64,000 nt of DNA from Candidatus Pacebacteria bacterium CG2_30_36_39 (lineage in GTDB: Bacteria > Patescibacteriota > Microgenomatia > UBA1400 > PJMF01), in the NCBI GenBank assembly GCA_001873435.1, contig MNZB01000004.1:14030-78029 (forward strand), written 5' to 3'. The notes beneath the pieces were generated by a model. It was given only the letters and a program-made list of their open reading frames with translations, ran no database searches and was not told where the DNA came from. The translations under genes were made by a program, and so were the position numbers. Of the stretch, positions 818 through 56,133 are shown piece after piece. Position 1 is the stretch's first letter. Each line of letters begins with the position of its first letter.

Positions 818-834
818 TGTTAATTCTAATCTAA

Positions 835-1791
835 TTACTTCAAATATTCAGCCAAATCCCATTGAGCCAAACCCTTTTCCTCAAACAAACGCTGCATCTC
901 AATATTCCAATCTTTTAAAGATAATTCTTGTCTTTTACTAAGAATTGGATGTTCAGAAGGAATTAAAATATTTCCATTTTGAGAAAAACGCTCTCTTAAT
1001 TTTTCTAATTTTAGTTCAGATGGAAACAGGATAATTGCTCTAGTTGAAAAATCATTTTTCCTAGGACAAGTCAAATATTTATTAATCTGATCAAAATCAG
1101 CGGTTCTATTTTTCCCATCCCAAATACTATCACCACGGCGATTAGCTACATCAGAATAAATTACTTTATCAGCAGACATTCCATGCAATATCTCAATATG
1201 TTTTCCAGGAGATAAATTATTTAGTCCCAATTCAGGAACAACTACATCACGAATAAAAAAATTATCCAAAGAAATAAGAACTATCCCGCCCAATTTTATT
1301 AAATCAGTCACAAAACTAGCATCAGAAAAATTAGTTAAAACCAATCCATCTAAACCAAATCTTCTAGCCAAAGAAATAATATATTGATGATATGCTTCAC
1401 CAGATTCATAATGGAAAGAAGGCAAACCCTTTTTGAAGTCACCATTAACAATATCACCAGAATCATTTAAATGACTCAAAACACCAGTTAGATAAAAATC
1501 AGCCTGAGTTAAAGCTTCATTGCCAAAACCAAAAGTTCTTTTTCCAAGCAAAATATTAATGGCAACCATTGCTGCAGTAGGCAAACAATTAATTCTGGCC
1601 AACATATCATCTGGAGTTTCTTTTAACTTTTGTAAGCCACGACTCTCCAATAATTTAATATCAAGATCGGCGACAACTTTACCAAAATCATCCTTTGCTT
1701 CAAACTGACAAATATATAGAGATGGGTCTAAAAATCTTCCAACAAATTCATTTGTGTAAACTAATTCTGTTGGCAGATCCTCTTTAATCAT
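835..1791 (-). CDS. peptidase C39-like (BtrH/C39_2-like) domain protein
   Basis: Motif NCLPTAAMVAINILLG resembles the catalytic-Cys block of C39-like peptidases (nCGp.s.aM.l.y.g). A later His block (HQYIISL) follows. Family assignment is by motif only. Confidence 0.45.
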   Translation of the reverse strand: MIKEDLPTELVYTNEFVGRFLDPSLYICQFEAKDDFGKVVADLDIKLLESRGLQKLKETPDDMLARINCLPTAAMVAINILLGKRTFGFGNEALTQADFYLTGVLSHLNDSGDIVNGDFKKGLPSFHYESGEAYHQYIISLARRFGLDGLVLTNFSDASFVTDLIKLGGIVLISLDNFFIRDVVVPELGLNNLSPGKHIEILHGMSADKVIYSDVANRRGDSIWDGKNRTADFDQINKYLTCPRKNDFSTRAIILFPSELKLEKLRERFSQNGNILIPSEHPILSKRQELSLKDWNIEMQRLFEEKGLAQWDLAEYLK

Positions 1792-1797
1792 AGTTTT

Positions 1798-2355
1798 CTA
1801 GCTTCTCTTAAAAAATTTATCAGGACTTTTCTCAACTTCTCTAGCAAAAAATAGTGCTAACTCAAAATTCTCCTGCTCCGCTGCTGGCATCTTAGACATA
1901 AAAACAGGCCTACCAGCCAACAAAAGTTCTTTGGAACCAGCTCTATCATTTTCCCAAGCAATATAACGCAAAGCTAGTCTGAATAAATCACCACTAATAC
2001 TAAGAGGCAATTCAATATATGAACCATCTTTGAAACTAACTCTCTCATGCTCCTTACTTCTATCTAAATCTGCCAATAATTTTCTTCCAGCCCCTAGGGT
2101 TAATTCTAAAGATAAAAATATATCTGTTGATCCAGATGAAATAGGTAATTCTTTTCCAACCTGATCATGGGTATAAACCATGGCCCGATAACCCTGCTCG
2201 TCTGGTCTAGTTCCATTGGTTGATAAAACAGTGACTTTCCAAGGAACCATATAATGATATTTTCCAGTTTCCTGAAGATTAGTAAGTGCCTCTATTGGCC
2301 TAACTCTACCGGAATTAAAAAGAAATTTTTCTGGTTTTTCTTGAGCTGAATTCAT
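1798..2355 (-). CDS. hypothetical protein
   Basis: 185-aa ORF immediately downstream of the C39-like gene and probably co-transcribed. No recognisable motif. Confidence 0.4.
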   Translation of the reverse strand: MNSAQEKPEKFLFNSGRVRPIEALTNLQETGKYHYMVPWKVTVLSTNGTRPDEQGYRAMVYTHDQVGKELPISSGSTDIFLSLELTLGAGRKLLADLDRSKEHERVSFKDGSYIELPLSISGDLFRLALRYIAWENDRAGSKELLLAGRPVFMSKMPAAEQENFELALFFAREVEKSPDKFFKRS

Positions 2356-2383
2356 AGAACTATATTATATCCCATATTTCAAA

Positions 2384-3445
2384 TTATATGTTCAAAATAT
2401 TACTTATTACCTCAATAAACTTTTTATTTATCTTTCTAGTCCTAGGACTCACTCTAACAAAATCATTACCCAAAACTGGAAAAGCCGTACCATTCACCAC
2501 TGAAACATTTAAATCAGCTAATTTTTCAACAAAATCATTAGAAGAAAGAAATAATGGTGTAACTTTTACCAATAAATTATTTGCCTCAGAATCAACAACC
2601 TCAAAGCTCATTTTTTTTAATTCTCTTGTTAAAAAACATCTTTCTTTAACCATAAATTTTCTTGTTTTATTCATAAACACTTGGTCATTTAAAGCAGCTA
2701 TCACTGCTTTCTGAGCAAATTTGTTAACCGCAAAAGGCTGGGCTATCATCTGCAACAAATTAACTCCTTGTGGGTTAGCAACACAAAAGCCAACTCTCAG
2801 ACCAGCTAAGCCAAAACCTTTAGAAAAAGTTCTTAAAACAATTAGATTATCAAAATTAGCTACTTCACTAATTACCGATTCACCACCAAATTCGATATTA
2901 GCCTCATCTACTATTACAAAGGCTTTGGTATTTTTAACTAATTGCAAAATATCTTTTTTAGCTAACAATTTACCAGTTGGATTATTGGGGTTACAAAGAA
3001 ATATTATTTTTGTCTCCTTAGATATTTTTTCTTTTATATCAATTAAATCTATAGAAAAATCACTCGTCATTGGTGATTGAATAACAATTCCACCAGCCAA
3101 AGCCACTGACTTCTCAAACATTGGAAAAGTTAGAACTGGAACAATAGCTTCTTCTCCTTTTGACATAAGAACTCTAGGTAAAAGCTGAATCAACGACTCA
3201 GAACCATTGCTAATAAAAAAGTTTTTTAAAGAAAGCTTAAATCTTTGAGCCAAATCAACCCTGATTAGATTACTATCTGGATCTGGGTAATCAAAACAAT
3301 CTATTTGAGTTATTTCTTTCATAACCCTAATTACTTCTAAAGAGCAACCAAGTGGATTTTCACTCAAAGAAAGATCAATAGCTTGTTTGTTGCCAAAAGC
3401 ATAAAGAGTTCTAAAACTAGCTGGAGGGAGAATAAGGTTTTTCAT
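2384..3445 (-). CDS. hisC: class I/II PLP-dependent aminotransferase, histidinol-phosphate aminotransferase-like
   Basis: Motifs ENPLG, FLCNPNNPTG, VIVDEA and RTFSKGFGLAGLRVGF (PLP-lysine region) are typical of HisC-type aminotransferases. The ORF track starts at a TTG (3457); the in-frame ATG at 3445 (MKNLILPP...) is preferred here. Confidence 0.7.
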   Translation of the reverse strand: MKNLILPPASFRTLYAFGNKQAIDLSLSENPLGCSLEVIRVMKEITQIDCFDYPDPDSNLIRVDLAQRFKLSLKNFFISNGSESLIQLLPRVLMSKGEEAIVPVLTFPMFEKSVALAGGIVIQSPMTSDFSIDLIDIKEKISKETKIIFLCNPNNPTGKLLAKKDILQLVKNTKAFVIVDEANIEFGGESVISEVANFDNLIVLRTFSKGFGLAGLRVGFCVANPQGVNLLQMIAQPFAVNKFAQKAVIAALNDQVFMNKTRKFMVKERCFLTRELKKMSFEVVDSEANNLLVKVTPLFLSSNDFVEKLADLNVSVVNGTAFPVLGNDFVRVSPRTRKINKKFIEVISNILNI

Positions 3446-3454
3446 ATTTTTCCA

Positions 3455-3480
3455 CAAAAAAACCTCCCTTAGGGAGGTTA
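3455..3480 (-). terminator. hairpin ACCTCCC-TTA-GGGAGGT with flanking A/T runs (terminator-like on the minus strand), just upstream of the aminotransferase start
   Basis: Perfect 7-bp GC-rich stem at 3462..3478 preceded by an A-run on the plus strand, which reads as a U-run on the minus strand. No obvious upstream minus-strand gene for it to terminate. Confidence 0.3.
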
Positions 3481-3610
3481 AATAATCTTGAAAATGGTTT
3501 TAAACTTTATGCCACCACAAAACTACCTAGCTCCCGAGGAGAGGTATACCACCAATGATATTGGACGGTAGTTTGGCTACACATAATATTCAGTATTATA
3601 TCCCAAATAC

Positions 3611-4273
3611 TTGATGTTACAATGTTTACCTATGGCAAATAATAATATTGGATTCAAACAAACAATTGAATGGTACGAAGCACACGCTGAAGAATATGCA
3701 CAAAAGGTAGCAGACAAACGCGATAGCTTCTTACTTGATAGATTTACAAAGAAACTCCCAGCTAAAGCCAAAATTTTAGATGCTGGTTGTGGAGCTGGAA
3801 GAGACTGCATGGCTTTGGCTGAAAAAGGTTTAATACCAACTGGCTTAGACCTTGCTGGTAACTTAATCAAACTGGCTAAAAAACACCAGCCAAAACTAAA
3901 TTTTATCAAAGGCAATTTTCTAGATCTGCCATTCCCAGACAATAGCTTTGATGGTGTTTGGGCCAATGCTTCCTTGGTTCATTTGGAAACAATTAAAGAA
4001 GTTAAACAAGCCTTAAAAGAATTTAGAAGAGTAATGAAACATAATGGCATTGCCCATATCTTTGTCAAACAACAACCTGGCGAGAAAAAAACAGAAGTTG
4101 TTGCTCACGGTCATTCTGATGATGTAGCTCTATTCTTCCGTTGGTTTACCAAAGCAGAATTAAAGAAACTCTTACAAGAATCTGGTTTTACAATTTTAAG
4201 CATTGAAGATAATTATTCCAGAAAAGGTGGACGCAAAAACATCAAATGGATTGCGGCCCTAGTACAGAAGTAG
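3611..4273 (+). CDS. class I SAM-dependent methyltransferase
   Basis: Motif I ILDAGCGAGRD, an acidic post-I residue, and a Methyltransf_11/25-like layout. Start could be a later Met (3632). Confidence 0.8.
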   Translation: MMLQCLPMANNNIGFKQTIEWYEAHAEEYAQKVADKRDSFLLDRFTKKLPAKAKILDAGCGAGRDCMALAEKGLIPTGLDLAGNLIKLAKKHQPKLNFIKGNFLDLPFPDNSFDGVWANASLVHLETIKEVKQALKEFRRVMKHNGIAHIFVKQQPGEKKTEVVAHGHSDDVALFFRWFTKAELKKLLQESGFTILSIEDNYSRKGGRKNIKWIAALVQK

Positions 4274-4284
4274 TCTTTAAAAAA

Positions 4285-5034
4285 TTAAATAACTAATCTA
4301 GCAAATATTGGTAAGTGATCAGAAACATCTGTTTCAATTATTTTTATTTCTTCTACCACAATGTTTTTTGTGCCAAAAATATAATCAAGTCTCCAGTTGA
4401 GCTCATTTTCTGCAAAACCATCTTTATCAAAAGGCTTGGTGGTCCAAGTTTTCTCAGAAAAATCTGGACCAAGATGTTTTAAATTATTTAAATTATTTAT
4501 TGAATTTATCAAAAAAGAATCTGGAGCAGCATTGAGATCTCCTGTAAAAATAAAGCTTTGTTTTTTCTTTTTCAAAATTTCTAATAAATTATTTGCTTCA
4601 TTCTTTCGCTGTTCAGTCATTTCAAAAAAAGGCGTATAAGACAAATGAGTTGTGCTAAAAATAATTCGTTTCCCTTCTTTTTCAACTGTTAGTTCAACAT
4701 AAACCCTACCTTCTTCAGCTGCATTAACAGGATTAGTTTTGGGTGGTTGAATATATTCGAATCTCTTATTTACAATTGGTAGTTTGGAAAAAATAGCATT
4801 ACCCTGAGTTTCTTTTTCTGGTCTATTTGTCCAACTTTCTGAAACTTGAAAAAAATATTTATAGCTCAATTTATCAGCAATATATTTTGCAGTATCCAAT
4901 GGAGGTTGAAGTTTTGAATGCTGAATAAATTCCTGAGCACAAATTACATCAGGATTTAATTCTTTGATTAATTGAATAATTTTATCAGGGTCCTCTTTGT
5001 ACCAAACATTCCATTGTAAAAGCGATATTTGCAT
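4285..5034 (-). CDS. endonuclease/exonuclease/phosphatase (EEP) family protein
   Basis: N-terminal LQWNVW, DVICAQEF, internal TGDLNAAPDS and C-terminal SDHLPIFARL are EEP hallmarks. Confidence 0.8.
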   Translation of the reverse strand: MQISLLQWNVWYKEDPDKIIQLIKELNPDVICAQEFIQHSKLQPPLDTAKYIADKLSYKYFFQVSESWTNRPEKETQGNAIFSKLPIVNKRFEYIQPPKTNPVNAAEEGRVYVELTVEKEGKRIIFSTTHLSYTPFFEMTEQRKNEANNLLEILKKKKQSFIFTGDLNAAPDSFLINSINNLNNLKHLGPDFSEKTWTTKPFDKDGFAENELNWRLDYIFGTKNIVVEEIKIIETDVSDHLPIFARLVI

Positions 5035-5102
5035 AATTTATATTTTAACAAAACTAAAAAAACTAATTTTCTCTTCACTCAACACACTTATCATAGCAAA
5101 AT

Positions 5103-6467
5103 TTACTCATCAATAACTGAAGTACTTATCTCTGGAAGTTGTAAAATATCAGCAAACATCTCATCCAAATACTCTCCTGTATGAGGATTTATTGCATTAT
5201 GCAATTCATTTTTAACTGTTTGCAACATTTCATTTGCCTCCACTGTTAAACCAGCATCTCGCAAATGCTCTAAAGCCTGCCTAACAAATAACATATTTAT
5301 TCTCCCAGAAGTACCTGGACTATCAAAAAAGGTGCCACAGCTAATCATTGCTGCCATAGCTGATGCCTTGGCAGCCAATAAAGAAGTTTCTGGATCACTA
5401 CTACCACCTTGATACATAAAAATATGTTCAAAATCATCAATTAACTTACTATTATAGTCATCTACTTCCATACTTATTATTCTCGTCATAACCTCATTTA
5501 ACTGACTTACTGCACTAGAAAAATTTGCTTTCCAACTACCATTGAAACCAGCATCACAAGGACAAGCACCATGCCACCTTATCAAATCTCCATGAGGACA
5601 ACTCCAAGCTGTTCTTTCCCGTAAATTACCTTCCAAAAAATCTCCTTCACCCCAGACACTCATTGCCTCATTAATACCCAACATTGCTACTCCAGCTTCT
5701 GGCAAAGCAGTCTCCATTAAATATCTCAAAAACATATCACCAAATTTAAAATGATGACCAAAAGTTTCTCCGTCCGTAAAAGCTATCATTGGCAAAGTGG
5801 CTGGTAAATTATCTAGTCTAGGAAATATCACTTCATCTGCAAACTGATTTGCATTTTCTTTTTTATGGTGAGCTAAAGCAGAAGAAACTGGTCGATCAAA
5901 AGCTAATAATAAAAACTGCTTACCATTGGGAAGAGGAATTTTCACTGGCCGATCATCAATCTCTTTATTGGGAACATCGATTTGTTCAGGAGCACATATT
6001 ACTCCGATATAACCAAATTCAGAAAGAACTTCTAATGTTTCCATATCCAAAGCCGTCTCTGGTGCCCAAAACCATTGTGGCAATTGCCCTGCTTGTTCAG
6101 CAAATAATTTTGCTCCAGCACCAATTAAAATCTGTTTGTCTCCATAAGAAAGATCTGGCAACAATACATGAAGATAGGGATCTCCAACTCCTCTTTCTTT
6201 CAAAGCTGATTCTAAATCAGGCAAAGATTCTGGAGATATATTTTCCATTTCTTTACGCATAGTCGCAAAGAAATCAAATGAAGAAAGCTCTAATAAGCCA
6301 GCTTGAATCTGTGGAACATAGCTTTCTCCAGCAATTACTCTATTCCAATCAACACCATATGGATCTGTCTGAATAGATTTAACCCGTTCGTGAGCTCCTT
6401 TTCTAGGAGGTTGATAAAAGTGCTCACCGAGAATCATGAAACGTTCTTGATTGTATCGAGCCATCAA
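5103..6467 (-). CDS. glycoside hydrolase family 57-like protein
   Basis: GEHFYQPPR (GH57 region I HQP-type), WAPETAL (WxPE nucleophile region) and TDGETFGHH (DGE acid/base region). Also a Cys cluster CPHGDLIRWHGACPC. Confidence 0.65.
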   Translation of the reverse strand: MMARYNQERFMILGEHFYQPPRKGAHERVKSIQTDPYGVDWNRVIAGESYVPQIQAGLLELSSFDFFATMRKEMENISPESLPDLESALKERGVGDPYLHVLLPDLSYGDKQILIGAGAKLFAEQAGQLPQWFWAPETALDMETLEVLSEFGYIGVICAPEQIDVPNKEIDDRPVKIPLPNGKQFLLLAFDRPVSSALAHHKKENANQFADEVIFPRLDNLPATLPMIAFTDGETFGHHFKFGDMFLRYLMETALPEAGVAMLGINEAMSVWGEGDFLEGNLRERTAWSCPHGDLIRWHGACPCDAGFNGSWKANFSSAVSQLNEVMTRIISMEVDDYNSKLIDDFEHIFMYQGGSSDPETSLLAAKASAMAAMISCGTFFDSPGTSGRINMLFVRQALEHLRDAGLTVEANEMLQTVKNELHNAINPHTGEYLDEMFADILQLPEISTSVIDE

Positions 6468-6506
6468 AAATCAAGCATATATTTATTTGAAACAATTTAA
6501 AAGAGG

Positions 6507-7778
6507 TTAATGCTTTAAAGCTTCTCTTTGTTCAATGCTGTGAAAAATTAAGATCACCAAAATCAAAGGAAAAAATGCCATTAAAGCAGTTTTATGTGAA
6601 CCAAAATTATCCAAAGCAAAACCAATAGCTGGAAACAATACAATAGAAATAATATTGCGCACAAGACTCTCCAAAGAACCAAGAGTAGCACGCATATTCT
6701 TTTGATAAAAATATTGTTTGAATGGACTCATGATTGGAGAAATTAATGAACTAAATGAGAAATAAACTACAAAAAATATTAAACCAGCAATAGGACCAGA
6801 AACAACAAATAAAGATGTTAAAACTAATAATCTAGCAACCATCATGATTTCCAAATATTTTTTTTCTGAAGAAAATTTCTTACTAAAATATTTAGGTACC
6901 AAACTAAAAACTGCCCCCATCAAAGAACCCAAGGCAACCATAATAGGTAAATTTCTTACATCCAATTTAAGATCCAATAAAAATGATTGATAAACTACAT
7001 CTGAAAAAAATAGGTTTACCACTTCACTAAAAATACCAACAAATAATAATTTTTTAACAACTGGATGAGAACTTGTATATTTAATTGCTTGTTTAGAAAT
7101 TTTAACTGTATCAGCAAAATTCTTTTTTAAAGAAAAAGTAACTTTTCTGGTTTTTTCTTTCAAACCAGAAAGAATCATGGCACCAACAAAATAACCCACA
7201 CAACCAGTTAACCACAAAAAATCTAAACCCTGGTGACTCTGACCAAAAACAAAATATTGAGTAGTAGCACCAACTAAGTACAAAAAGATAATTGCATTTA
7301 AATTTGAAAAAGCAGTAGCAAATTGATAAACAAACTCAAAGGTTGAATAAAACTTATTAATCAAATCTTCTCTTTTAGCTTTTTTGGCAATGTCGTAAGG
7401 TAAAGACTCAAAAGCTCCAGAACTAAATGTATAAGCAATTCCCTTTAAACTAAAAAGAAACCACATCATCCAAGGCTCAGTAATAAAGAAAAATAAGCCA
7501 AAAATTAAAGACTGCATCAACCAACTAACTTGAACAGATTTTCTTTTGCCATATAAATCTGCAAAAACTCCAGTTGGAATTTCTGCGATTAATAAAAATA
7601 ATGATTGCAAAGACAAACCAATACCAACCTGAGTTGCTGAAAAACCTTTGGCAAAAAAGAAGGCCATAATAACCATATCAATATCTGGAATAGAAACACC
7701 TGTTCCTAAACCTAAATAAATAGGGTTAAAAAGCTGCCATTCTTTTTGCTTAAAATAATTTTTTAGCTTCTTAAACAT
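6507..7778 (-). CDS. MFS-type transporter (host-like composition), last gene of the atypical operon
   Basis: About 12 hydrophobic segments. MFS loop motif GVFADLYGKRKS (GxxxDrxGrR-like). Only a 7-nt gap to the upstream gene. Confidence 0.65.
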   Translation of the reverse strand: MFKKLKNYFKQKEWQLFNPIYLGLGTGVSIPDIDMVIMAFFFAKGFSATQVGIGLSLQSLFLLIAEIPTGVFADLYGKRKSVQVSWLMQSLIFGLFFFITEPWMMWFLFSLKGIAYTFSSGAFESLPYDIAKKAKREDLINKFYSTFEFVYQFATAFSNLNAIIFLYLVGATTQYFVFGQSHQGLDFLWLTGCVGYFVGAMILSGLKEKTRKVTFSLKKNFADTVKISKQAIKYTSSHPVVKKLLFVGIFSEVVNLFFSDVVYQSFLLDLKLDVRNLPIMVALGSLMGAVFSLVPKYFSKKFSSEKKYLEIMMVARLLVLTSLFVVSGPIAGLIFFVVYFSFSSLISPIMSPFKQYFYQKNMRATLGSLESLVRNIISIVLFPAIGFALDNFGSHKTALMAFFPLILVILIFHSIEQREALKH

Positions 7779-7785
7779 AAGATTC

Positions 7786-8226
7786 TTATCTTACACAAAT
7801 TCGAGCAAAATGAATAATCATTTCCATTTCTTCAGTAAGCTCTAAGCCTTCTCTAGTTTTAACAGCAAATCTATCATCTTCGGCAACAATTGAAATAATT
7901 TCTAAAGTAGCAGTAGTGAAAAACTCACAACCAACTCCATTTACTAAGTATTCCAAAATATCCCAAAGTCTAATATTTCTCTTATCCCATTCCAAATCTT
8001 GGCCAGCCAAAAAATCTTCCTCTGCTAAAGCTAAAACATCTCTAGCTCCTTCACTTAATTGACCTGATTTGTTTTTTAACTGATAAATAATCAGCATGGC
8101 TGCAGCGCAACTAGCGGTATCAGTTGTGAGCATATGACCACATACATGATAAAGCAAATCGCAGTTACATTCCTCTGCTTGTTCTTCTGTTTCTAGAAGA
8201 TGTTTTGGTTTTTTTTCGTCAGACAT
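7786..8226 (-). CDS. hypothetical acidic Cys/His-containing protein
   Basis: 146 aa, acidic. EECNCDLLYHVCGHM could be a metal-binding cluster. Same strand and tight spacing with the operon genes. Confidence 0.4.
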   Translation of the reverse strand: MSDEKKPKHLLETEEQAEECNCDLLYHVCGHMLTTDTASCAAAMLIIYQLKNKSGQLSEGARDVLALAEEDFLAGQDLEWDKRNIRLWDILEYLVNGVGCEFFTTATLEIISIVAEDDRFAVKTREGLELTEEMEMIIHFARICVR

Positions 8227-8237
8227 AATATCCTTTA

Positions 8238-10151
8238 TTATTCTTTTTCTTGCTCATTAATAAAAAGTGCTACAGCACAGCTATCAGAATCAGCCGCTAA
8301 AGCCTGGGCACATAATTTTTCTAGTTCATTTAATTGAGAAGTTTGAATTCCTTCGTTTAATTCTTCGTCAGTAACATAAGTTGGAAAACTCATTGGTTCA
8401 GTTAGCATGAATCTTTCAGTATGAGTACTTTCGATTGGTTGAAAAATTTCTTCTGGACTTTGCAAATCTTTAAGCATTGCCTGCAAAATCTGCATCGGAC
8501 CTTCATGAGTAGAAACAACAACCTTCATTGATCTACCAGTCTCCTGATAAAACTGATTAACTGTTTCTAGTAAATCAATCATAAAAGACAAAGCTTTGAG
8601 ATGTACAAATGAGAAATTTTCACCACCAGCTATGGCATTAGAAAATGAATGCAAAACTTCTTCACCATATTCACTAGCTTTGTGTCCAACTCCAACTCCG
8701 AATGAACGCTCATTTAAACGCCAATCTCTAACAATAGCTGAAACTGGGAACGGCTCACCAATTGACCATAAAGCAACATCAATAGTTGCTAACGAAGAAG
8801 TTCTACCTGATGAAATTACTAAATCTGGAGCAGTAGTATCCCAAAGCTGAGTAGCAATATCATATGAACGTTGAGCACTTCTCTTGGCAATAGTGTCGTC
8901 AAGAATTCCATCGTTGGTATTAATTACACCAGGAAGTTTGCCAGCTCTTTGAGGAGTACTGTCGCCATTGCGAACTAAAAGCAAGTCCAAACCTGCTCCA
9001 TAATTCCAATTAGCTAATAATTCTTGATAACGAGTTCTAAGTTCATCAATACTTGGAATTAGTTCAAGAATTTCTGCTTTTTCTGGATTACTAGCAGTAA
9101 CAAAACTTGGTTCAGAAACTAATCTACCCAACTTACTAGGATCTCTTTGATTAACCCTATCTTTAACATATCCAGCTTGAGTTTCTTCATCCGCATTTTG
9201 AGCAGAAACAGAAACATCCTGAGTTAAACGATTGGTTTCCCAAAGTTTGAGAGCTCTTTTTTGATCTTCAGTTGGTTGATAATCTGGTTTTTCAACTGTA
9301 TGAGCACTCATAATACTTTCTACTTCGATACCATTTGGAAAAGAAAGTACACCAGTAGCATTAATAATAGGAGTAACCTCAGTTTGAAAATATCTAGTAC
9401 CATATTCTTGTGCCCAATAAAGCAAACCTGAAGTAAAAATTAAACGAGTGCCTGGTTTTAATTTGGCATCTTTATAAACTTCATGTTCAAGTAAAACTTT
9501 CTCTAGATCTTCACGCCAATTACGAGCTAATTTTTCGATTTCAGCTGGAAATGATTCCACACGACGAGCATCACCTGCTACATCATCAGCTTTAATACCT
9601 TCTATTTGAGCATTGAGTTGAGCACCATTAAAATCATCCCAGCCATCTATTTCAACCCACATGGGACTCATACCAGCAACTGGACCACTACCCCATACTT
9701 TGCCAGCTGGAGAAACATCTCTATTAGAAATGTCTTGATAAACTCCGGCGTGAGTGATTTTTATTCCACCATCTTCGGTAACTACAGCCATAATAGCTGT
9801 TTCACCTTCAATAGCGTATTTAACACCATGCAAAAGCTCTAAGTCGTTAAGATCTAGTCTTCCTTTTGAATTTGGTACTAATGACCAATCTGGAGGAAGT
9901 GGATCTTCATAATAGGTACCATCTGGAAGAGTTGTAGGAGCTGAATTCCATTTCAAAGTAAAAACATGATCTGGAGTCCATTCACTAAGAGGCATGACTT
10001 CTTTGATCTCGCCATCTTTTGCCACTGCAGCTACTAAGCCTTTTTGTCGCAACTCTGCTTCAAAAGCTCTTTTTTCTTCTTTGTTTGTCCAATCTACTCT
10101 TTCGAGAGAAAGATCAAATTCTTGACGTAATCTACTTATTTTTTCTGCCAT
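8238..10151 (-). CDS. hypothetical two-domain protein; C-terminal phosphoglycerate-mutase-like (histidine phosphatase superfamily) domain with RHG to RNG substitution
   Basis: C-terminal region aligns block by block with dPGM: LLLVRNGDSTPQ vs LVLVRHGESQWN, SSGRTSSLAT vs TSVLKRAIHT, PVSAIVRDWRLNERSFGVGVGHKASEYGEEV vs [33 protein letters not shown], and VVVSTHEG vs IIAAHGNS. The N-terminal 380 aa are unassigned. Confidence 0.55.
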   Translation of the reverse strand: MAEKISRLRQEFDLSLERVDWTNKEEKRAFEAELRQKGLVAAVAKDGEIKEVMPLSEWTPDHVFTLKWNSAPTTLPDGTYYEDPLPPDWSLVPNSKGRLDLNDLELLHGVKYAIEGETAIMAVVTEDGGIKITHAGVYQDISNRDVSPAGKVWGSGPVAGMSPMWVEIDGWDDFNGAQLNAQIEGIKADDVAGDARRVESFPAEIEKLARNWREDLEKVLLEHEVYKDAKLKPGTRLIFTSGLLYWAQEYGTRYFQTEVTPIINATGVLSFPNGIEVESIMSAHTVEKPDYQPTEDQKRALKLWETNRLTQDVSVSAQNADEETQAGYVKDRVNQRDPSKLGRLVSEPSFVTASNPEKAEILELIPSIDELRTRYQELLANWNYGAGLDLLLVRNGDSTPQRAGKLPGVINTNDGILDDTIAKRSAQRSYDIATQLWDTTAPDLVISSGRTSSLATIDVALWSIGEPFPVSAIVRDWRLNERSFGVGVGHKASEYGEEVLHSFSNAIAGGENFSFVHLKALSFMIDLLETVNQFYQETGRSMKVVVSTHEGPMQILQAMLKDLQSPEEIFQPIESTHTERFMLTEPMSFPTYVTDEELNEGIQTSQLNELEKLCAQALAADSDSCAVALFINEQEKE

Positions 10152-52435: not shown

Positions 52436-52509
52436 CGGAGAGTGGCGCAGATGGCTAGCGCGCGCGCATGGGGTGCGCGAGGTCGCAGGTTCGAGTCCTG
52501 TCTCTCCGA
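52436..52509 (+). tRNA. tRNA-Pro (anticodon GGG), C1:G72 acceptor, no encoded CCA
   Basis: CGGAGAG-TG-GCGC-AGATGGCTA-GCGC-G-CGCGC-ATGGGGT-GCGCG-AGGTC-GCAGG-TTCGAGT-CCTGT-CTCTCCG-A. Cloverleaf is consistent. Anticodon loop AUGGGGU. Confidence 0.85.
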
Positions 52510-54143
52510 CAATCAGAAAAAAAGCCCTTTTTCTCAAAAGTAGCGAATGGTTCTTCTAATTGATACTTCGCTACTTTTTTGTTATTCACACGTAGGTTCG
52601 AGAAGATTTTTTCAATCAAATAATTTTTTCTACTTAGAGATTTGGTTTTGACGATCTCATCGGGCAATTTCTTAACTTGTTCGGTGAATTTAGAAAATGT
52701 CAAAATACTTGATTTGTTATTCTCAATCTGTTTTTCAATCTCAATTAATGCTGATTCAAATTCTTTGAGCTTTTTTCTATTTTCTTTCAGCTCTGATTCA
52801 TAATCTTCTCGTAGCTCTCGATCAGATATATCAAGTAGATACTTTTTGATTTTGATATTTTGCTGATTTAGACCAGCTTTTTGCGTAACAATTGATTTTT
52901 GTTCTACCCTGAGTAAAGCTAACCTATCTTTTTGAACCCTTTTAGACTCCTCTACATAATGCTCATATACCTCTTTTGTGGCAATGTTGGTATTTTTAAG
53001 AAAATCAACAACAAAATCTACTAAAACTCTAGCTCTAACGTGGTGTTGAACTTTTTTACCTGAGATATTTTTAAAAGAACATTTTTTGTTGTCACATCTA
53101 AAATAAAACTTGTTACCTTTGCTTGGTGAAGTGATTGAAACATACATTGTTTCACCACAATGATCACAAATAACTCGACCATTAAGTAGTCTACCCTTAA
53201 CATTCTTTTTCACTCTCTTGTCATATCTCCTCAAGAATGATTCTCTGTTTTTCTTAGTAATATTATTGATCTTGAAAAAGTGAGCAGGGCTAACTACTGG
53301 CACGAAATCAAATATCTCCATCAAATTAATAACCTTATCGCCATATCGCATTACCCCTGCATAAATTGGATCTGAAAACATTTCACTCAGACGTTTTTGA
53401 TCAAATGAATAGGGTTTTCTTTGATTTATCTTATTCGTTACTGGCTTAGTAAAATTATGTGTGTTGAGATACTCCTCAATTTCTCTATATATAGCCCCCT
53501 CAAACCTCATTTTCCAAGCTTCCCTGATCAAGACATAGTTATCACCATCGGGCTGTAATCGGTGCATATCGTCTTTAAAATAACCGTGTTTTGGTACTGT
53601 TAGCCAACCACCCTCTTCGGCTCTCTTATGAAGCCCTCTTTTTACATCTTTACTCAGAGCATCTGAATATTGTTTTGATAAAACAAAAGTAATGCCCAAC
53701 ATCACCTTGCCTGATTCATTATTTTCAAAGGAAAAAGAGGGAAATTTTAGATCCTTGATAATTCCTTTATCAAGCAGATCAATAATTTCACCTGCTTCTT
53801 TCATATTTCGAGCTAAACGATTTGGATGCCAAGCTAAAATACCTTGATACTTACCAGCCTTTACATCTTCAATCATTTTTCTAAACTTAGGACGAATATC
53901 AGGGTCTTTAGCACTCTCTTTTTCCTGAATATATGGCTCTATAACAATGAGCTTCTCTTTTCGAGCAAAGTTAAGGCACTCATCAATCTGGTCTGGAAGT
54001 GATTTCTCTTGTTTATCTTTGTCTTTTGTTGATCTTCGAGCATACAAAACATACTTGTATGATTTTGGATCATCTTCAACAATGGTATCTGCTTTTAAAT
54101 TTTTGAAGTATTCAAAAAAATCTTTTTGAGTAATATCAACCAT
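52455..54143 (-). CDS. large serine recombinase (resolvase/invertase catalytic domain + recombinase domain + zinc ribbon + coiled coil)
   Basis: N-terminal YARRSTKDKDKQEKSLPDQ (catalytic Ser), zinc ribbon CDHCGETMYVS...FRCDNKKC, 562 aa. The 3' 55 nt overlap the tRNA-Pro on the opposite strand. Confidence 0.85.
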   Translation of the reverse strand: MVDITQKDFFEYFKNLKADTIVEDDPKSYKYVLYARRSTKDKDKQEKSLPDQIDECLNFARKEKLIVIEPYIQEKESAKDPDIRPKFRKMIEDVKAGKYQGILAWHPNRLARNMKEAGEIIDLLDKGIIKDLKFPSFSFENNESGKVMLGITFVLSKQYSDALSKDVKRGLHKRAEEGGWLTVPKHGYFKDDMHRLQPDGDNYVLIREAWKMRFEGAIYREIEEYLNTHNFTKPVTNKINQRKPYSFDQKRLSEMFSDPIYAGVMRYGDKVINLMEIFDFVPVVSPAHFFKINNITKKNRESFLRRYDKRVKKNVKGRLLNGRVICDHCGETMYVSITSPSKGNKFYFRCDNKKCSFKNISGKKVQHHVRARVLVDFVVDFLKNTNIATKEVYEHYVEESKRVQKDRLALLRVEQKSIVTQKAGLNQQNIKIKKYLLDISDRELREDYESELKENRKKLKEFESALIEIEKQIENNKSSILTFSKFTEQVKKLPDEIVKTKSLSRKNYLIEKIFSNLRVNNKKVAKYQLEEPFATFEKKGFFSDCRRDRTRTCDLAHPMRAR

Positions 54144-54160
54144 ATCATCATTTTAAACCT

Positions 54161-54640
54161 TTAAGATGGTGGTGTAAGAGTGTAACCCATATTATCTAGT
54201 ATTCTTTGATACGCACCTAGTAAGTTATTAATTGTTTTTGGATCATTTTTAACACTCTCTATTGCTTGATTTTCGGCTTCTTTGATCTCATCTCGACTGA
54301 ACTCTTCCTTTGTTGCTCTGCTGTTTGTTGCAACCCATTGAATGAACTTGATCTGATCTCTGGTAAGTCCAGAGCCACCTGCTTGTTTGGTTTTAATCAA
54401 TTCTAATTCGTTGCTAACAATCTCGGCTACTACTATTGACAGGTGGTTTTGGGCTACCTCAATTCTTTCCGCAAATTCTGAATTTTCAGATTGCAAATCA
54501 TAGATGGTTGACTTTGGTATTTGGGCTTTAAGACAGGCTTTATTGATACTCAAACCAGCCTTTAAGTATGGTTCTAGTTTTCGGAAGAGTGTATCAACTT
54601 GTTTATCACTTAGGGCTGGTCTGCCTATATTTTGACTCAT
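54161..54640 (-). CDS. HTH DNA-binding protein resembling phage terminase small subunit N-terminus (tentative)
   Basis: GRPALSDKQVDTLFRKLEPYLKAGLSINKACLKAQIPKSTIYDL follows the GRP...e.i...G.s...c...gis..T pattern of TerS-type HTH domains. Confidence 0.4.
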   Translation of the reverse strand: MSQNIGRPALSDKQVDTLFRKLEPYLKAGLSINKACLKAQIPKSTIYDLQSENSEFAERIEVAQNHLSIVVAEIVSNELELIKTKQAGGSGLTRDQIKFIQWVATNSRATKEEFSRDEIKEAENQAIESVKNDPKTINNLLGAYQRILDNMGYTLTPPS

Positions 54641-54707
54641 ACTTTAATTATAAAAGAAATAAATCAGATTTTTCTGTTTTTGATGTGTTTATAATGCGTT
54701 ATAAAGA

Positions 54708-54740
54708 ATGCAAAAAGGGCTAATGTTTAATTAGCCCTTT
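54708..54740 (-). terminator. intrinsic terminator AAAGGGCTAAT-gttta-ATTAGCCCTTT plus U-run, after the Ltp gene
   Basis: Perfect 11-bp stem followed by TTTTTGCATTC on the minus strand. Confidence 0.6.
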
Positions 54741-54767
54741 AGTATTCGATTAAACAGATTGGTGATG

Positions 54768-55316
54768 TTATAAACCTACAGCATCAGCTCCATAACTGGC
54801 TTGTTCTGTTGTAAAGCCTTCAAACTCTAATTGATTTATTAAGCTTTCTCTTGAATAACCAGAAATATCTAGGTACGACTTAGCCTTTTTTGAGGCTTGT
54901 TCATTCCAATCAGCCCCAACTGCATCAACTGCATAAGTAGCATCTTCTGTAGAGAACTTTTCAAACTCTAGTTGTTTTATTAAGCCACTTCTTGAATAGC
55001 CTGAAATACTCAAATATGACTTTGCTTTTCTAACAGCATTTTTTTGAGATACAGTTTCGGAAGCATTACTATCTTCCGATTTGGTTGTGTCACTTTCTTC
55101 AATGACTTCTGTATTAGGTGATATGGTATTAGATTGGCTAGTTGGTGTATCACTACCACCAGAACTAGCTCCAATTACAATAAAGAGAAGGATAATTCCT
55201 AGAATACCAGTTAATATCGGGTGACGTTGTGCCCAATTACCCTGCTTTTCTTGACAATACGGACATTTTTTTGCTTTGTTATCGATTTCTTTTTGACAGC
55301 TACGACATTTTTTCAT
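54768..55316 (-). CDS. Ltp-family (host cell surface-exposed lipoprotein) superinfection-exclusion-like protein with N-terminal zinc ribbon and TM anchor
   Basis: CRSCQKEIDNKAKKCPYCQ ribbon, TM helix, Ser/Thr-rich linker, then two copies of AKSYL.ISGYSR.GLI.QLEFE.F..E.A.Y..DAVG (the Ltp repeat known from TP-J34-like prophages). Confidence 0.7.
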   Translation of the reverse strand: MKKCRSCQKEIDNKAKKCPYCQEKQGNWAQRHPILTGILGIILLFIVIGASSGGSDTPTSQSNTISPNTEVIEESDTTKSEDSNASETVSQKNAVRKAKSYLSISGYSRSGLIKQLEFEKFSTEDATYAVDAVGADWNEQASKKAKSYLDISGYSRESLINQLEFEGFTTEQASYGADAVGL

Positions 55317-55358
55317 AGGGTAACCCTTTCGTTGTTCTAATCTTGTGGTTAATTATAT

Positions 55359-55405
55359 AGCAAATTGGGTGTTTACAACATAACTAATCCAATGTCTACA
55401 ACGTG
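55359..55405. promoter_or_regulatory. operator-like repeat cluster between divergent Ltp and XRE genes
   Basis: GTGTTTACAACATAACTAATCCAATGTCTACAACGTGGTGTAAACAT: imperfect inverted repeat (GTGTTTACA / TGTAAACAt) and direct repeat TACAAC. Confidence 0.35.
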
Positions 55406-55438
55406 GTGTAAACATAGGAATGGCACAACAATTAGAAT

Positions 55439-55711
55439 GTGTCATCTGCTAAATATAAACCATCATTGTCTAAACCTGAACAAGATAAATTAAGAAAACA
55501 ATTTACTCGAAAATTAGCAATTCATCTCAGGTCTGTTAGAGAGGAAAAAGGTCTTACTCAGGAAGACTTGGCTTTTAAAGCTGGAATCAACACAGCTTAT
55601 TACAGCCATTTAGAGCGTGGTGTTTATAGTCCAACTATGTTTGTAATTTGGAAAATAGCAGAAGCTCTTAAAATTGATTTAGAAAATTTTATGAAAGGTT
55701 TTGACTATTAA
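55439..55711 (+). CDS. XRE-family (Cro/CI-type) HTH transcriptional regulator
   Basis: LRSVREEKGLTQEDLAFKAGINTAYYSHLERG is the canonical HTH_XRE. Confidence 0.8.
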   Translation: MSSAKYKPSLSKPEQDKLRKQFTRKLAIHLRSVREEKGLTQEDLAFKAGINTAYYSHLERGVYSPTMFVIWKIAEALKIDLENFMKGFDY

Positions 55712-55752
55712 GTAGCAAATACATAATTAATTCGGTGAGATTAATGTAGATA

Positions 55753-55890
55753 TTAATAGTCTAAGGTAATAACATCACCATCGTCACTTATAGCCTGATC
55801 ATCATCCAAATCTTGGCTGGGTTCATTATCTTGGTTGTCATTATCAACCTCATCAACTAAATCGGTTAAATAATCTTTTTGTGAGTTCAT
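55753..55890 (-). CDS. 45-aa highly acidic small protein (own ORF call, below the track size cutoff)
   Basis: Own translation MNSQKDYLTDLVDEVDNDNQDNEPSQDLDDDQAISDDGDVITLDY. Inside the integrative element. Confidence 0.3.
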   Translation of the reverse strand: MNSQKDYLTDLVDEVDNDNQDNEPSQDLDDDQAISDDGDVITLDY

Positions 55891-56133
55891 ATCACTATTA
55901 TAGCGTGATTGCTTGATATTTTTCTTCACTAATTTTTACATTTCCCTTGAAGTAATCTGTATAGTAATCAACAACTATTGATAATTCTGGTAGTTGAGAG
56001 ATGATGGTATCATAGAGAAGTTCGGGATAGCTTTCCCGTTTTCGACAAAACTTTTTAATCATATAGTTTTCATCCAATAAATTAGCTTTGGCTGGGTAAA
56101 AAGAGCTATAATGTCTTTTTTAAAGAAAAAAAT

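What the first reader, a model, noticed from the sequence alone, without database searches (positions are those of the whole stretch)
52436..56130. Mini integrative element at tRNA-Pro: large serine recombinase overlapping the tRNA, TerS-like protein, Ltp exclusion protein, XRE repressor
The recombinase reading frame runs 55 nt into the tRNA-Pro 3' end on the opposite strand, which is the classic attachment-site geometry. The cargo (a TerS-like HTH protein, a superinfection-exclusion lipoprotein and a Cro/CI-type repressor, plus acidic small ORFs) resembles a phage satellite or phage-inducible chromosomal island rather than a full prophage. Such elements are barely described in small-genome AT-rich lineages.
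Basis: partly seen in the sequence, partly recalled or inferred. Interest (0 to 1): 0.6.

Follow-up and report, generated by a model that had tools for sequence, protein, structure and literature searches.

The report
Mini mobile element splitting its recombinase
A 3.5-kb mobile element sits at the tip of a proline tRNA gene in an ultra-small groundwater bacterium, and its serine recombinase gene is cut by the insertion itself, so the inserted and free forms encode enzymes with different tails; the same design recurs in related recombinases of these bacteria.

Summary
Window 52,513-56,048 is a 3,536-bp integrative element at the 3' end of tRNA-Pro(GGG), bounded by a 6-bp core, CGACAA. Contigs with 100% identical flanks lack it, including one from a sample that also holds the occupied form, so the insertion is a current polymorphism.

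The recombinase is an intact large serine recombinase (LSR) of a clade found almost only in CPR/Patescibacteria. In 61 of 73 related loci its reading frame runs into an opposite-strand tRNA gene.

The overlap is not the classic tRNA geometry. The crossover lies inside the recombinase gene, 49 codons before its true stop. Insertion replaces a conserved 49-aa tail with 18 residues read from the tRNA antisense strand. The tail-coding piece stays at the far end of the element (55,901-56,047). In 16 of 16 elements from two distant subclades the tail is in frame across the junction, and it is under purifying selection.

Ltp-domain and XRE calls hold. The "TerS-like" call is weak. The satellite reading is not supported: no replication, capsid or helper evidence, and sister elements carry varied cargo.

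Closest precedents, Mx8 and SSV integrases, are tyrosine recombinases. Verdict: new variant of a known kind.

The parts
52436..52510 (+). Host tRNA-Pro(GGG). Its last 3 nt and the 3 nt after it form the crossover core. The gene has the same sequence in occupied and empty sites.
   Evidence: ARAGORN; Rfam 56.5 bits; comparison with the empty site.
52507..52512 (.). attL core CGACAA: the last 2 nt of the acceptor stem, the discriminator A, and CAA.
   Evidence: Occupied versus empty sites L005, L006 and L008.
52513..56048 (.). The integrative element, 3,536 bp counting one copy of the core.
   Evidence: BLAST of empty-site contigs: 100% identity up to 52512 and again from 56043.
52455..54143 (-). 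Large serine recombinase in its inserted form, 562 aa. Residues 1-544 are encoded by the element (52513-54143). The last 18 residues are read from the antisense strand of the host tRNA.
   Evidence: Pfam Resolvase, Recombinase and Zn_ribbon_recom; phrog_95 integrase 2e-60; invariant S38 and four Cys; Foldseek to SPbeta and phiC31 integrases, 1e-17 and 3e-13.
54161..54640 (-). 159-aa all-helical HTH protein, 17 nt upstream of the recombinase gene in an apparent operon. It is 'TerS-like' only weakly. Candidate roles: DNA-binding accessory factor, regulator or small terminase.
   Evidence: Sf6_terminase 19.1 bits against a cut-off of 27; 28 of 30 homologues hit the same family; AF2 pLDDT 82.6; Foldseek best E 0.5; found next to the recombinase in L093, L094 and L096.
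54768..55316 (-). 182-aa membrane protein: N-terminal zinc ribbon, one membrane helix, two Ltp repeats. Probable superinfection-exclusion cargo.
   Evidence: Pfam Lipoprotein_Ltp 3e-28, 2 repeats; phrog_4980 superinfection exclusion 7e-41. No lipobox Cys after the membrane helix (sequence).
55439..55711 (+). XRE/Cro-CI-type HTH regulator, 90 aa from a GTG start or 81 aa from the TTG at 55466. It is divergent from the Ltp gene.
   Evidence: Pfam HTH_3 3.7e-17; phrog_3 repressor; gene calls of 81 and 90 aa.
55753..55890 (-). Conserved 45-aa acidic protein that starts 7 nt after the stop codon of the tail. In the circular form it would lie directly downstream of the full-length recombinase gene. 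It is a candidate directionality factor (inference).
   Evidence: Called as a gene in ENA and JGI records; homologues in L093, L094 and L110; dN/dS 0.09; no family match.
55898..56047 (-). Detached 3' end of the recombinase gene, 55901-56047, plus its stop codon TAA at 55898-55900. It has 49 codons, counted from the TGT codon inside the core, and no start codon of its own. In the circular form it is in frame with the recombinase and gives a 593-aa protein.
   Evidence: In-frame join; conserved in L093, L094 and L110; dN/dS 0.23; no internal start codon.
56043..56048 (.). attR core CGACAA.

Best explanation
SHOWN

1. The element. Window 52,513-56,048 is a 3,536-bp site-specific integrative element in a Pacebacteria-like CPR bacterium from groundwater. 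It is inserted at the extreme 3' terminus of tRNA-Pro(GGG), and the tRNA stays intact. The insertion is a current polymorphism within one strain population.

2. The enzyme. It is moved by a large serine recombinase (LSR) from a large, almost CPR-restricted clade. Members of this clade lie convergent with, and read into, the 3' end of a tRNA gene (Pro, Val, Leu, Asp, Gln, Glu, Lys, Ser, Ile, Gly).

3. The split gene. The recombination site of the element (attP) lies inside the recombinase gene, at the boundary between the folded body (residues 1-544) and a conserved tail of about 49 aa.
- Insertion splits the gene.
- The inserted copy encodes the body plus 18 residues read from the tRNA antisense strand.
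- The tail-coding segment, which has no start codon, ends up 3.5 kb away at the other end of the element.
- Excision, or a tandem array, rejoins them in frame to give 593 aa.

INFERRED

4. The crossover dinucleotide is probably GT on the recombinase strand, which is A73-C74 of the tRNA. This is the only dinucleotide shared by all cores seen here.

5. The two enzyme isoforms probably differ in activity, or in which direction of the reaction they favour. This would make the DNA state itself part of the integration/excision control, as reported for Mx8 IntP/IntX.

6. The 45-aa acidic gene follows the tail and would be co-transcribed with the recombinase only in the circular form. It and the upstream HTH protein are the candidate accessory factors.

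7. The Ltp-domain protein and the XRE regulator are cargo in a variable slot, probably for phage exclusion and its control. How the element moves between cells is unknown.
For: Boundaries and activity:
- Empty sites L005, L006 and L008 give attB ...CTCTCCGACAAAACTTTTT... .
- Flanks are 100% identical over 11.3 kb plus 8.0 kb.
- Sample ERZ27293362 holds both the occupied contig L003 and the empty contig L010.

Enzyme:
- Pfam and PHROG matches.
- Invariant S38, R36 and four Cys.
- AF2 model with catalytic, recombinase and zinc-ribbon domains plus a coiled coil. Foldseek hits to SPbeta, phiC31 and LI integrases at 1e-17 to 4e-9.

Clade-wide tRNA targeting:
- 922 homologues at E < 1e-10. Many C-termini are tRNA-antisense peptides.
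- In 61 of 73 loci with a matched C-terminus, the ORF overlaps an opposite-strand tRNA by 11-96 nt.

Split gene:
- The circular join gives an open 593-aa frame.
- The tail is conserved in L093 (64% identity), L094 (48%) and L110 (87%), and is in frame through the shared core GTCG(G).
- A second subclade, about 30% identical as LSRs, has a 51-54-aa tail 3.3-7.7 kb upstream. It is in frame through GGTCG, GGTGG or TGGTCG in 12 of 12 loci.
- Homology between L047 and L063 begins at the core.
- Tandem arrays L063, L087 and L057 contain uninterrupted full-length genes.
- 15 of 16 tails have no start codon in their first 10 codons.
- dN/dS, window against L110: tail 0.23, body 0.05.

Plausibility of a role for the tail:
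- In phiC31 integrase the extreme C-terminus lies at the RDF-binding region (10.1101/2025.05.02.651858).
- Mx8 integration changes the integrase C-terminus and its specificity (PMC6070905).
Against: - No circular form was seen. The attP junction has 0 hits in JGI metagenome contigs. The exact 593-aa protein is absent from the protein collection. A second metagenome scan returned only one inserted copy.
- The polymorphism does not say whether the inserted enzyme can excise the element, or only that insertion was recent.
- The tail is modelled with low confidence (pLDDT 41-64) and without a docking site, so its function is untested.
- The dN/dS estimate for the tail rests on 16 substitutions.
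- The frame test is not 16 independent trials. At least three distinct core contexts are independent.
- Five related loci lack an adjacent tRNA and were not explained (L027, L069, L070, L078, L086).
- L110 shows the same recombinase reading into non-tRNA DNA.
Confidence: 0.8

Rival explanations
1. Phage satellite (PICI/PICMI-like). The element stays repressed by its XRE protein, is induced by a helper phage, and uses its own small terminase to have its DNA packed into helper capsids.
For: - The 159-aa protein and 28 of 30 of its homologues give weak hits to the Sf6 small-terminase family. PHROG small-terminase families match at 5.8e-6.
- The top fold matches, though not significant, are two phage small-terminase-like rings.
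- Ltp and an XRE repressor are typical of phage lysogeny modules.
- The element is very small, as minimal satellites are.
Against: - The terminase match is below Pfam's cut-off (19.1 against 27 bits). The PDB profile gives E about 0.1 and Foldseek E of 0.5 or worse.
- There is no replication, primase, capsid-size or large-terminase gene.
- The sister elements delimited here do not carry this protein. They carry unrelated cargo such as an aaRS with tRNA-Trp and a methyltransferase.
- Only 2 good matches were found in 2.9 million viral contigs. The larger one (L097) showed no clear phage structural genes.
- No helper phage is known.
Confidence: 0.15
2. Decayed prophage remnant: the leftover lysogeny module (integrase, exclusion gene, repressor) of a once complete phage, with no life of its own.
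For: - The gene set is that of a temperate-phage lysogeny module.
- Some relatives do look decayed: L096 lacks the tail and its Ltp gene is called as only 70 aa.
Against: - Presence and absence are precise, with 100% identical flanks, and both states occur in one sample.
- All ORFs are intact and under purifying selection, dN/dS 0.05-0.23.
- The same compact layout (tail, acidic ORF, cargo slot, recombinase; 2.9-7.9 kb) recurs in 14 delimited elements of two distant subclades, with both ends matching in frame.
Confidence: 0.08
3. The ORF/tRNA overlap and the downstream 'tail' are incidental. The recombinase really ends near residue 544, any read-through is irrelevant, and the tail ORF is an unrelated small gene or noise.
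For: - The folded, conserved body ends at about residue 540.
- Homologues in databases are mostly 540-565 aa.
- The tail is modelled at low confidence.
Against: - 16 of 16 tails are in frame across the junction, in at least three different core contexts.
- Tail length is conserved at 49-54 aa, with a shared [EY]P-x-L motif near the junction and a hydrophobic residue plus Leu at the C-terminus.
- 15 of 16 tails have no usable start codon. Several host flanks have none either.
- dN/dS is 0.23.
- Database lengths of 540-565 aa are explained by the sequences being inserted copies that end inside tRNAs.
Confidence: 0.07
4. A mobilisable transposon of the Tn4451/TnpX type: a small element moved by a large serine recombinase through a circular intermediate into many target sites, and transferred by a co-resident conjugative element.
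For: - Small size, a large serine recombinase and an inferred circular intermediate.
- The TnpX catalytic domain appears among the fold matches.
- L110 shows one insertion next to non-tRNA DNA.
Against: - Targeting is strict: 61 of 73 loci lie at a tRNA 3' end.
- No Mob/relaxase gene was detected.
- Similarity to characterised large serine recombinases is low. NCBIfam scores are far below all cut-offs.
Confidence: 0.05

Closest known systems
Myxophage Mx8 integrase (IntP/IntX)
   Same: attP lies inside the integrase coding sequence. Integration gives the gene a new 3' end, so the prophage encodes an integrase with a different C-terminus. That integrase is reported as still active but altered in specificity (PMC6070905). 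From memory, the host target is the 3' end of a tRNA gene.
   Different: Mx8 Int is a tyrosine recombinase in a full-size phage of about 50 kb in a large-genome bacterium. Here the enzyme is a large serine recombinase in a 3.5-kb element in a CPR bacterium. The core is only 4-6 bp.
SSV-type 'suicidal' integrases of archaeal viruses and plasmids
   Same: The recombination site is inside the integrase ORF. Integration splits the gene into two pieces at opposite ends of the element, and target specificity varies (PMC7253208). From memory, the usual targets are tRNA genes. Tandem or mixed arrays here likewise create hybrid genes (L063).
   Different: SSV-type integrases are tyrosine recombinases of archaea, and the split is described as yielding two inactive pseudogenes. 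Here the whole conserved enzyme body stays intact and only a 49-aa tail is exchanged.
Phage large serine integrases (phiC31, Bxb1, SPbeta SprA, Listeria A118/LI)
   Same: Same domain architecture and fold. Short att sites with minimal identity. Direction of the reaction is expected to depend on the coiled coil and a small accessory protein.
   Different: Sequence similarity to characterised members is low. The target is a tRNA 3' terminus, not a protein-coding gene. attP lies inside the enzyme's own gene. No recognisable RDF.
Minimal phage satellites (PICI, PICMI) and tycheposons of Prochlorococcus
   Same: Small cargo-carrying islands at tRNA genes in streamlined genomes. Some tycheposons carry terS and a few use a large serine recombinase (bioRxiv 10.1101/2020.12.28.424599).
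   Different: No replication module, no credible packaging gene, no helper. 910 of 937 tycheposon-like elements use tyrosine recombinases.
Engineered integrase-RDF fusions
   Same: A polypeptide attached to the C-terminus of a serine integrase is used to control the direction of recombination (PMC5737554 title and abstract; the fusion construct is described in 10.1101/2025.05.02.651858). This shows that this position can control directionality.
   Different: The fusions are synthetic. Here a natural tail is gained or lost through the recombination event itself, and its effect is unknown.

Membership tests
Large serine recombinase (LSR / serine integrase) | N-terminal resolvase catalytic domain with a serine nucleophile | tested here: met
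   Pfam Resolvase 86 bits, E 3.2e-24. R36 and S38 invariant in 30 homologues.
Large serine recombinase (LSR / serine integrase) | Recombinase domain, four-Cys zinc ribbon and an inserted coiled coil | tested here: met
   Pfam Recombinase 28.7 bits and Zn_ribbon_recom 37 bits, both above their cut-offs. C326, C329, C350 and C355 invariant. Modelled helices 390-438 and 442-477. Full-length Foldseek hits to SPbeta (1e-17) and phiC31 (3e-13) integrases.
Large serine recombinase (LSR / serine integrase) | Short att sites sharing little more than the crossover dinucleotide | tested here: met
   attL and attR share only CGACAA. No longer repeat was found. The exact crossover dinucleotide cannot be tested here.
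Classic tRNA-gene genomic island (Islander signature) | Tyrosine-family integrase | tested here: not met
   The only recombinase is of the serine family. Definition as in PMC4383910.
Classic tRNA-gene genomic island (Islander signature) | The element carries a copy of the tRNA 3' part, leaving a displaced tRNA fragment as a direct repeat | tested here: not met
   The 22-nt tRNA 3' end occurs once in the window even with 3 mismatches allowed. The repeat is 6 bp.
Integrases with intragenic attP (Mx8 / SSV type) | The crossover site lies inside the integrase ORF, so integration changes or splits the gene | tested here: met
Integrases with intragenic attP (Mx8 / SSV type) | Tyrosine recombinase chemistry | tested here: not met
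   Serine recombinase. The resemblance is one of design, not of family.
Phage satellite (PICI / PICMI) | Own replication module (primase/replicase and origin) | tested here: not met
   No such gene among the six ORFs.
Phage satellite (PICI / PICMI) | A gene that redirects helper packaging (small terminase or capsid-remodelling protein) | tested here: inconclusive
   Only the weak Sf6_terminase-like signal of the 159-aa protein.
Phage satellite (PICI / PICMI) | Induction and packaging by a helper phage | not testable with these tools
   No helper is known. The viral collection holds few relatives.
Small terminase subunit (Pfam Sf6_terminase, PF20901) | Score at or above the family's gathering cut-off | tested here: not met
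   19.1 bits against 27. 28 of 30 homologues hit the family at E up to 0.1, best 2.6e-6.
Small terminase subunit (Pfam Sf6_terminase, PF20901) | HTH followed by a long-helix fold that matches solved small terminases | tested here: inconclusive
   The model (pLDDT 82.6) has an HTH followed by a 34-residue helix. The best Foldseek hits are 2ao9 and Sf6 gp1, but with E 0.5-1.7 and TM 0.28-0.39.
Small terminase subunit (Pfam Sf6_terminase, PF20901) | Encoded next to a large terminase gene | tested here: not met
   In all close relatives its neighbour is the recombinase gene.
Ltp superinfection-exclusion lipoprotein (TP-J34 type) | Ltp repeat domains | tested here: met
   PF07553, 98 bits, two repeats. 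phrog_4980 at 7e-41.
Ltp superinfection-exclusion lipoprotein (TP-J34 type) | Lipoprotein signal peptide with a lipobox cysteine | tested here: not met
   The N-terminus is CxxC...CxxC followed by one membrane helix (ILTGILGIILLFIVIGASSGG). There is no Cys after it (sequence).
Ltp superinfection-exclusion lipoprotein (TP-J34 type) | Blocks phage DNA injection | not testable with these tools
   Inferred from the domain only.

The most novel reading that the evidence does not exclude
The split gene is a built-in directionality switch for a serine integrase. The free circle encodes the full-length enzyme with its tail, which is competent for integration. The inserted copy can only encode the tail-less enzyme with a tRNA-derived end, which has altered (excision-permissive or silenced) activity. 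The arrangement of the DNA would then do part of the job that a separate directionality factor does in known systems. The same design, together with recognition of the near-universal discriminator/CCA end, would let this clade hop between tRNA species across the CPR.
Probability: 0.25. Interest if true: 0.85.

Novelty: new variant of a known kind. Interest (0 to 1): 0.7.

Why it matters
1. Target choice. Serine integrases were stated not to be known to target tRNA genes (PMC4383910). A large survey of their targets never mentions tRNA in its main text (PMC10083194). Here a whole clade, with hundreds of members in CPR genomes, does so.

2. Gene design. Placing attP inside the integrase gene, so that insertion rewrites the enzyme, is known for tyrosine recombinases (Mx8, SSV). 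I found no description of it for a serine recombinase. The C-terminus is where directionality factors act or can be fused, so this gives a directly testable natural model of state-dependent control.

3. CPR biology. These 3-8-kb elements look like a main vehicle of variable genes (phage exclusion and methyltransferase genes, even a tRNA plus its synthetase) in bacteria with tiny genomes and few known mobile elements.

4. Possible tools. Compact integrases whose targets are conserved tRNA ends could be useful for genetics in CPR bacteria.

Tried and rejected
- Long direct repeats and a second copy of the tRNA 3' end in the window: none found.
- Exact search for the predicted attP joint in JGI metagenome contigs: 0 hits.
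- Exact look-up of the 593-aa rejoined protein: absent from the collection.
- A profile of the three close tails did not reach other subclades. The second tail family came instead from a tandem array.
- Viral-contig scan: only 2 good matches. PHROG search of the 38-kb contig L097 found no clear structural genes.
- Fold and PDB searches for the 159-aa protein: not significant.
- Structure model of the 593-aa protein: the tail has low confidence and no docking information.
- Promoter and terminator scan: no more sites than in shuffled sequence.
- PADLOC and NCBIfam: nothing for the 159-aa, Ltp-domain, acidic or tail proteins beyond generic HTH hits.
- The idea that the host flank supplies a start codon for the tail, as the ATG in the window suggests: rejected as a general feature, because five of the sixteen flanks offer no start codon.
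- Pseudogene status of the recombinase in L007, where no gene was called: rejected, the ORF is identical and intact.

Full report
OBSERVATION

ARAGORN and Rfam place tRNA-Pro(GGG) at 52436-52510 on the + strand. A 562-aa ORF at 52455-54143 (-) overlaps the tRNA's 3' part by 56 nt, stop codon included.

The protein calls are as follows:
- The 562-aa ORF has Pfam Resolvase (3.2e-24), Recombinase and Zn_ribbon_recom domains, and matches PHROG integrase family phrog_95 at 2e-60.
- The 159-aa ORF (54161-54640, -) gives a weak Sf6_terminase match, 19.1 bits against a cut-off of 27.
- The 182-aa ORF (54768-55316, -) has two Ltp repeats, 98 bits.
- The ORF at 55439-55711 (+) is an XRE-type HTH.

So the described objects exist. 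Base composition does not set the region apart.

BOUNDARIES AND ACTIVITY

An exact look-up of the neighbouring RecA protein returned contigs from several groundwater assemblies and one NCBI genome. In these, recA and the ABC-transporter gene are about 360 bp apart with only the tRNA between them (L005, L006, L008). Other contigs carry the insert (L004, L007, L009).

Aligning the two states gives:
- attB: ...CTCTCCGACAAAACTTTTT...
- attL: ...CTCTCCGACAATCAGAAAA...
- attR: ...GTTTTCGACAAAACTTTTT...

The shared core is 6 bp, CGACAA, at 52507-52512 and 56043-56048. The element is 3,536 bp.

Flanks of empty and occupied contigs are 100% identical over 11.3 and 8.0 kb. Sample ERZ27293362 holds both an occupied contig (L003, which ends 79 and 135 nt outside the element) and an empty one (L010). 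This is what an assembly-graph bubble from a mixed population looks like. The recombinase ORF is intact in L007, where the gene caller had skipped it. A protein identical to the 159-aa one is named in NCBI as from Candidatus Pacebacteria bacterium CG2_30_36_39.

WHY THE ORF RUNS INTO THE tRNA

The crossover core covers the last two bases of the acceptor stem, the discriminator A and three bases beyond. The tRNA is therefore wholly host DNA, and the recombinase ORF crosses attL into it. Joining the element's ends as in an excised circle keeps the frame open. Several tests argue against chance.

1. Close relatives. The 49-aa tail is conserved in L093 (recombinase 72% identical, tail 64%), L094 (56% and 48%) and L110 (tail 87% identical; 89% nucleotide identity over the aligned parts of the element). 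In each it lies at the far end of the element, on the same strand. In each it shares the codon phase of the core (xGT CGx) with the recombinase/tRNA junction.

2. A distant subclade.
   - In L063, a recombinase that is not next to a tRNA reads on for 50 more codons into the start of a second element.
   - That sequence is homologous to segments lying 3.3-7.7 kb upstream of the recombinase in twelve other Saccharibacteria-type loci.
   - Their recombinases are only about 30% identical to that first recombinase of L063.
   - In 12 of 12 of these loci the core (GGTCG, GGTGG or TGGTCG) is in the same codon phase on both sides.

3. Left boundary in that subclade. L047 and L063 carry 91%-identical elements in different left contexts. 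Their homology starts at the core.

4. No independent start. 15 of 16 tails have no ATG, GTG or TTG in their first ten codons. In five of the sixteen the host flank has none either, so the tail cannot be made on its own.

5. Selection. Between the window and L110, dN/dS is 0.23 for the tail (16 substitutions, mostly in the junction-proximal linker) and 0.05 for the body.

6. Shared features. Tails are 49-54 aa. They share an [EY]P-x-L motif near the junction and end in a hydrophobic residue plus Leu.

An AlphaFold model of the 593-aa protein places the junction (residues 544/545) at the end of the confidently folded body. A disordered linker and three low-confidence helices follow.

THE CLADE

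A search with the rejoined protein found 922 relatives at E < 1e-10 among the 8,000 candidates scored. Where sources name them, most names are CPR groups. Their lengths cluster at 540-565 aa. Many C-termini are recognisable translations of tRNA T-arm and acceptor antisense (...RGDRTRTCDL......GTRTPNP...).

A scan of one genome per species returned at least 578 relatives, and 80 loci were kept. Counting those, the extra loci fetched by protein look-up (L093-L096) and the viral-contig loci, 73 loci had the recombinase C-terminus matched:
- In 61, the ORF overlaps an opposite-strand tRNA by 11-96 nt. The tRNAs are Pro (most often), Val, Leu, Asp, Gln, Glu, Lys, Ser, Ile and Gly.
- Five are cut by a contig end.
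- Two are tandem arrays.
- Five are unexplained.

Within one subclade the target changes between tRNA-Pro, tRNA-Val and tRNA-Gln. For Pro and Val, where both junctions could be read, the core moves with the tRNA's 3' end. All cores share GT, which is A73-C74 on the tRNA strand. I infer this to be the crossover dinucleotide.

The fold is that of phage serine integrases: Foldseek gives SPbeta 1e-17, phiC31 3e-13 and LI 4e-9. By sequence the clade is remote from characterised members.

THE REST OF THE ELEMENT

The fixed frame in the window's own subclade is: tail, a small acidic ORF, a variable slot, the HTH protein, then the recombinase.

- Acidic ORF. It is 45 aa (55753-55890) and starts 7 nt after the tail's stop codon. 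It is conserved, with dN/dS 0.09, and has no family match. Saccharibacteria elements have an analogous acidic ORF at the same position, with a PPQTSxxDTSNW motif. In the circle it would sit directly downstream of the full-length recombinase gene. After insertion it is separated from that gene. This placement and its size make it my candidate directionality factor. From memory, small directionality factors of 58-64 aa are known, and SPbeta sprA and sprB lie at opposite ends of the prophage. This is inference.

- 159-aa protein. It is all-helical, an HTH followed by a 34-residue helix, with pLDDT 82.6. Its family consistently but weakly hits the Sf6 small-terminase family: 28 of 30 members, best 2.6e-6. 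PDB profile hits reach only E about 0.1 and Foldseek only E 0.5 or worse. It is adjacent to the recombinase in L093, L094, L096 and L110. Apart from isolated hits in three other loci (L019, L023, L071), it was not found in more distant elements. Of the Saccharibacteria elements checked, several encode an HTH_23 protein and L059 has a DUF5681 protein directly upstream of the recombinase.

- Ltp-domain protein. It is anchored by a membrane helix after a zinc ribbon, not by a lipobox (sequence).

- Slot content in relatives. It includes a 124-aa unknown (L110). L094 carries a class-I aaRS, tRNA-Trp and a Trp-repressor-like gene. Others carry DUF4352 membrane proteins, an excisionase-type HTH (HTH_17) and a methyltransferase. 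Further cargo was read from sequence motifs only: restriction-like, SET-domain, aldo-keto reductase, MerR-like and metal-resistance-like proteins.

No element examined has replication, capsid, large-terminase or relaxase genes. The viral collection has only two good recombinase matches. The 38-kb contig among them shows no clear structural genes.

MECHANISM: SHOWN AND INFERRED

Shown:
- Precise insertion at the tRNA terminus and current presence/absence variation.
- An intact serine integrase.
- attP inside its gene.
- Two alternative C-termini, depending on the DNA state.
- Conservation of this design across distant relatives.

Inferred:
- The two isoforms differ functionally. In support, the phiC31 integrase C-terminus lies at the RDF-binding region and tolerates functional RDF fusions (PMC5737554). 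In Mx8, the integration-induced change of the integrase C-terminus alters its specificity (PMC6070905).
- Against, or unknown: no circular form was detected. The polymorphism does not tell the direction of the event.
- The alternative is that the inserted enzyme is crippled, as in SSV-type 'suicidal' integrases (PMC7253208), and needs a full-length copy in trans. Tandem arrays do regenerate full-length genes.
- The route of transfer between cells is unknown. Packaging by a helper phage is possible but unsupported.

COMPARISON AND NOVELTY

The element works like a minimal integrative island. Its recombinase is a member of the large serine recombinase family (all tested features met). It does not fit the classic tRNA-island definition (tyrosine integrase, displaced tRNA fragment) or the satellite definition (no replication module, packaging gene inconclusive).

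The intragenic attP resembles Mx8 and SSV integrases in design, but those are tyrosine recombinases. The Islander paper states that serine integrases were not known to target tRNA genes. The largest survey of serine-integrase targets does not mention tRNA in its main text. My other literature searches found no description of this clade or design. The library lacks most subscription journals, so prior description cannot be excluded.

I rate it a new variant of a known kind, with interest 0.7.

Noticed in passing
L094:1759-9650 (also L095): A 7.9-kb sister element at tRNA-Pro(TGG) carries its own tRNA-Trp(CCA) gene (4994-5068), a class-I aminoacyl-tRNA synthetase of the Trp/Tyr type (382 aa), a B3_4-domain protein and a Trp-repressor-family protein. 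This amounts to a mobile 'tryptophan decoding' package in a CPR genome.
   Followed up: partly
L063:3429-10454; L087:6695-14124; L057:~650-8644: Tandem arrays of two elements at one tRNA; in L063 and L087 the two recombinases are only about 30% identical. The distal recombinase reads through the internal junction into the tail of the proximal element, giving a hybrid full-length gene. How a serine integrase inserts next to an already occupied site (attP x attL?) is unexplained.
   Followed up: partly
L110:1-4267: A close relative of the window element (89% nucleotide identity over the aligned parts) whose recombinase (586 aa) reads past the core into non-tRNA DNA. A 20-nt fragment of the tRNA-Pro 3' end sits about 180 nt upstream of its tail. 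This is either a secondary-site insertion or a rearranged array.
   Followed up: partly
L093:686-1072: Two weak extra matches to the tail motif lie upstream of the element's real tail. They may be relics of earlier insertions at the same site.
   Followed up: no
L008:~9755-9778 (NCBI GCA_002772855.1, PFDE01000002.1): The public genome with the empty site has a run of N and a duplicated tRNA 5' part at this tRNA. This looks like a scaffolding problem caused by the insertion polymorphism.
   Followed up: no
L038, L040, L041 compared with L042, L049, L059 and others: Within one recombinase subclade (shared ...VSVIKLNPPY... C-terminal region) the target differs: tRNA-Val(GAC), tRNA-Gln or tRNA-Pro(TGG). 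For Val and Pro the core follows the tRNA's 3' end (GGTGG against GGTCG). This indicates recent target switching.
   Followed up: partly
window:14381-14504 (-): A SAM-I/IV riboswitch (54.5 bits) lies upstream of a 377-aa ORF. It is unrelated to the finding.
   Followed up: no
window:54700-54745: A perfect 8-bp GC-containing hairpin (GGGCTAAT...ATTAGCCC) lies between the Ltp gene and the HTH gene. It is likely the terminator of the Ltp gene. The simple terminator scan did not list it.
   Followed up: no
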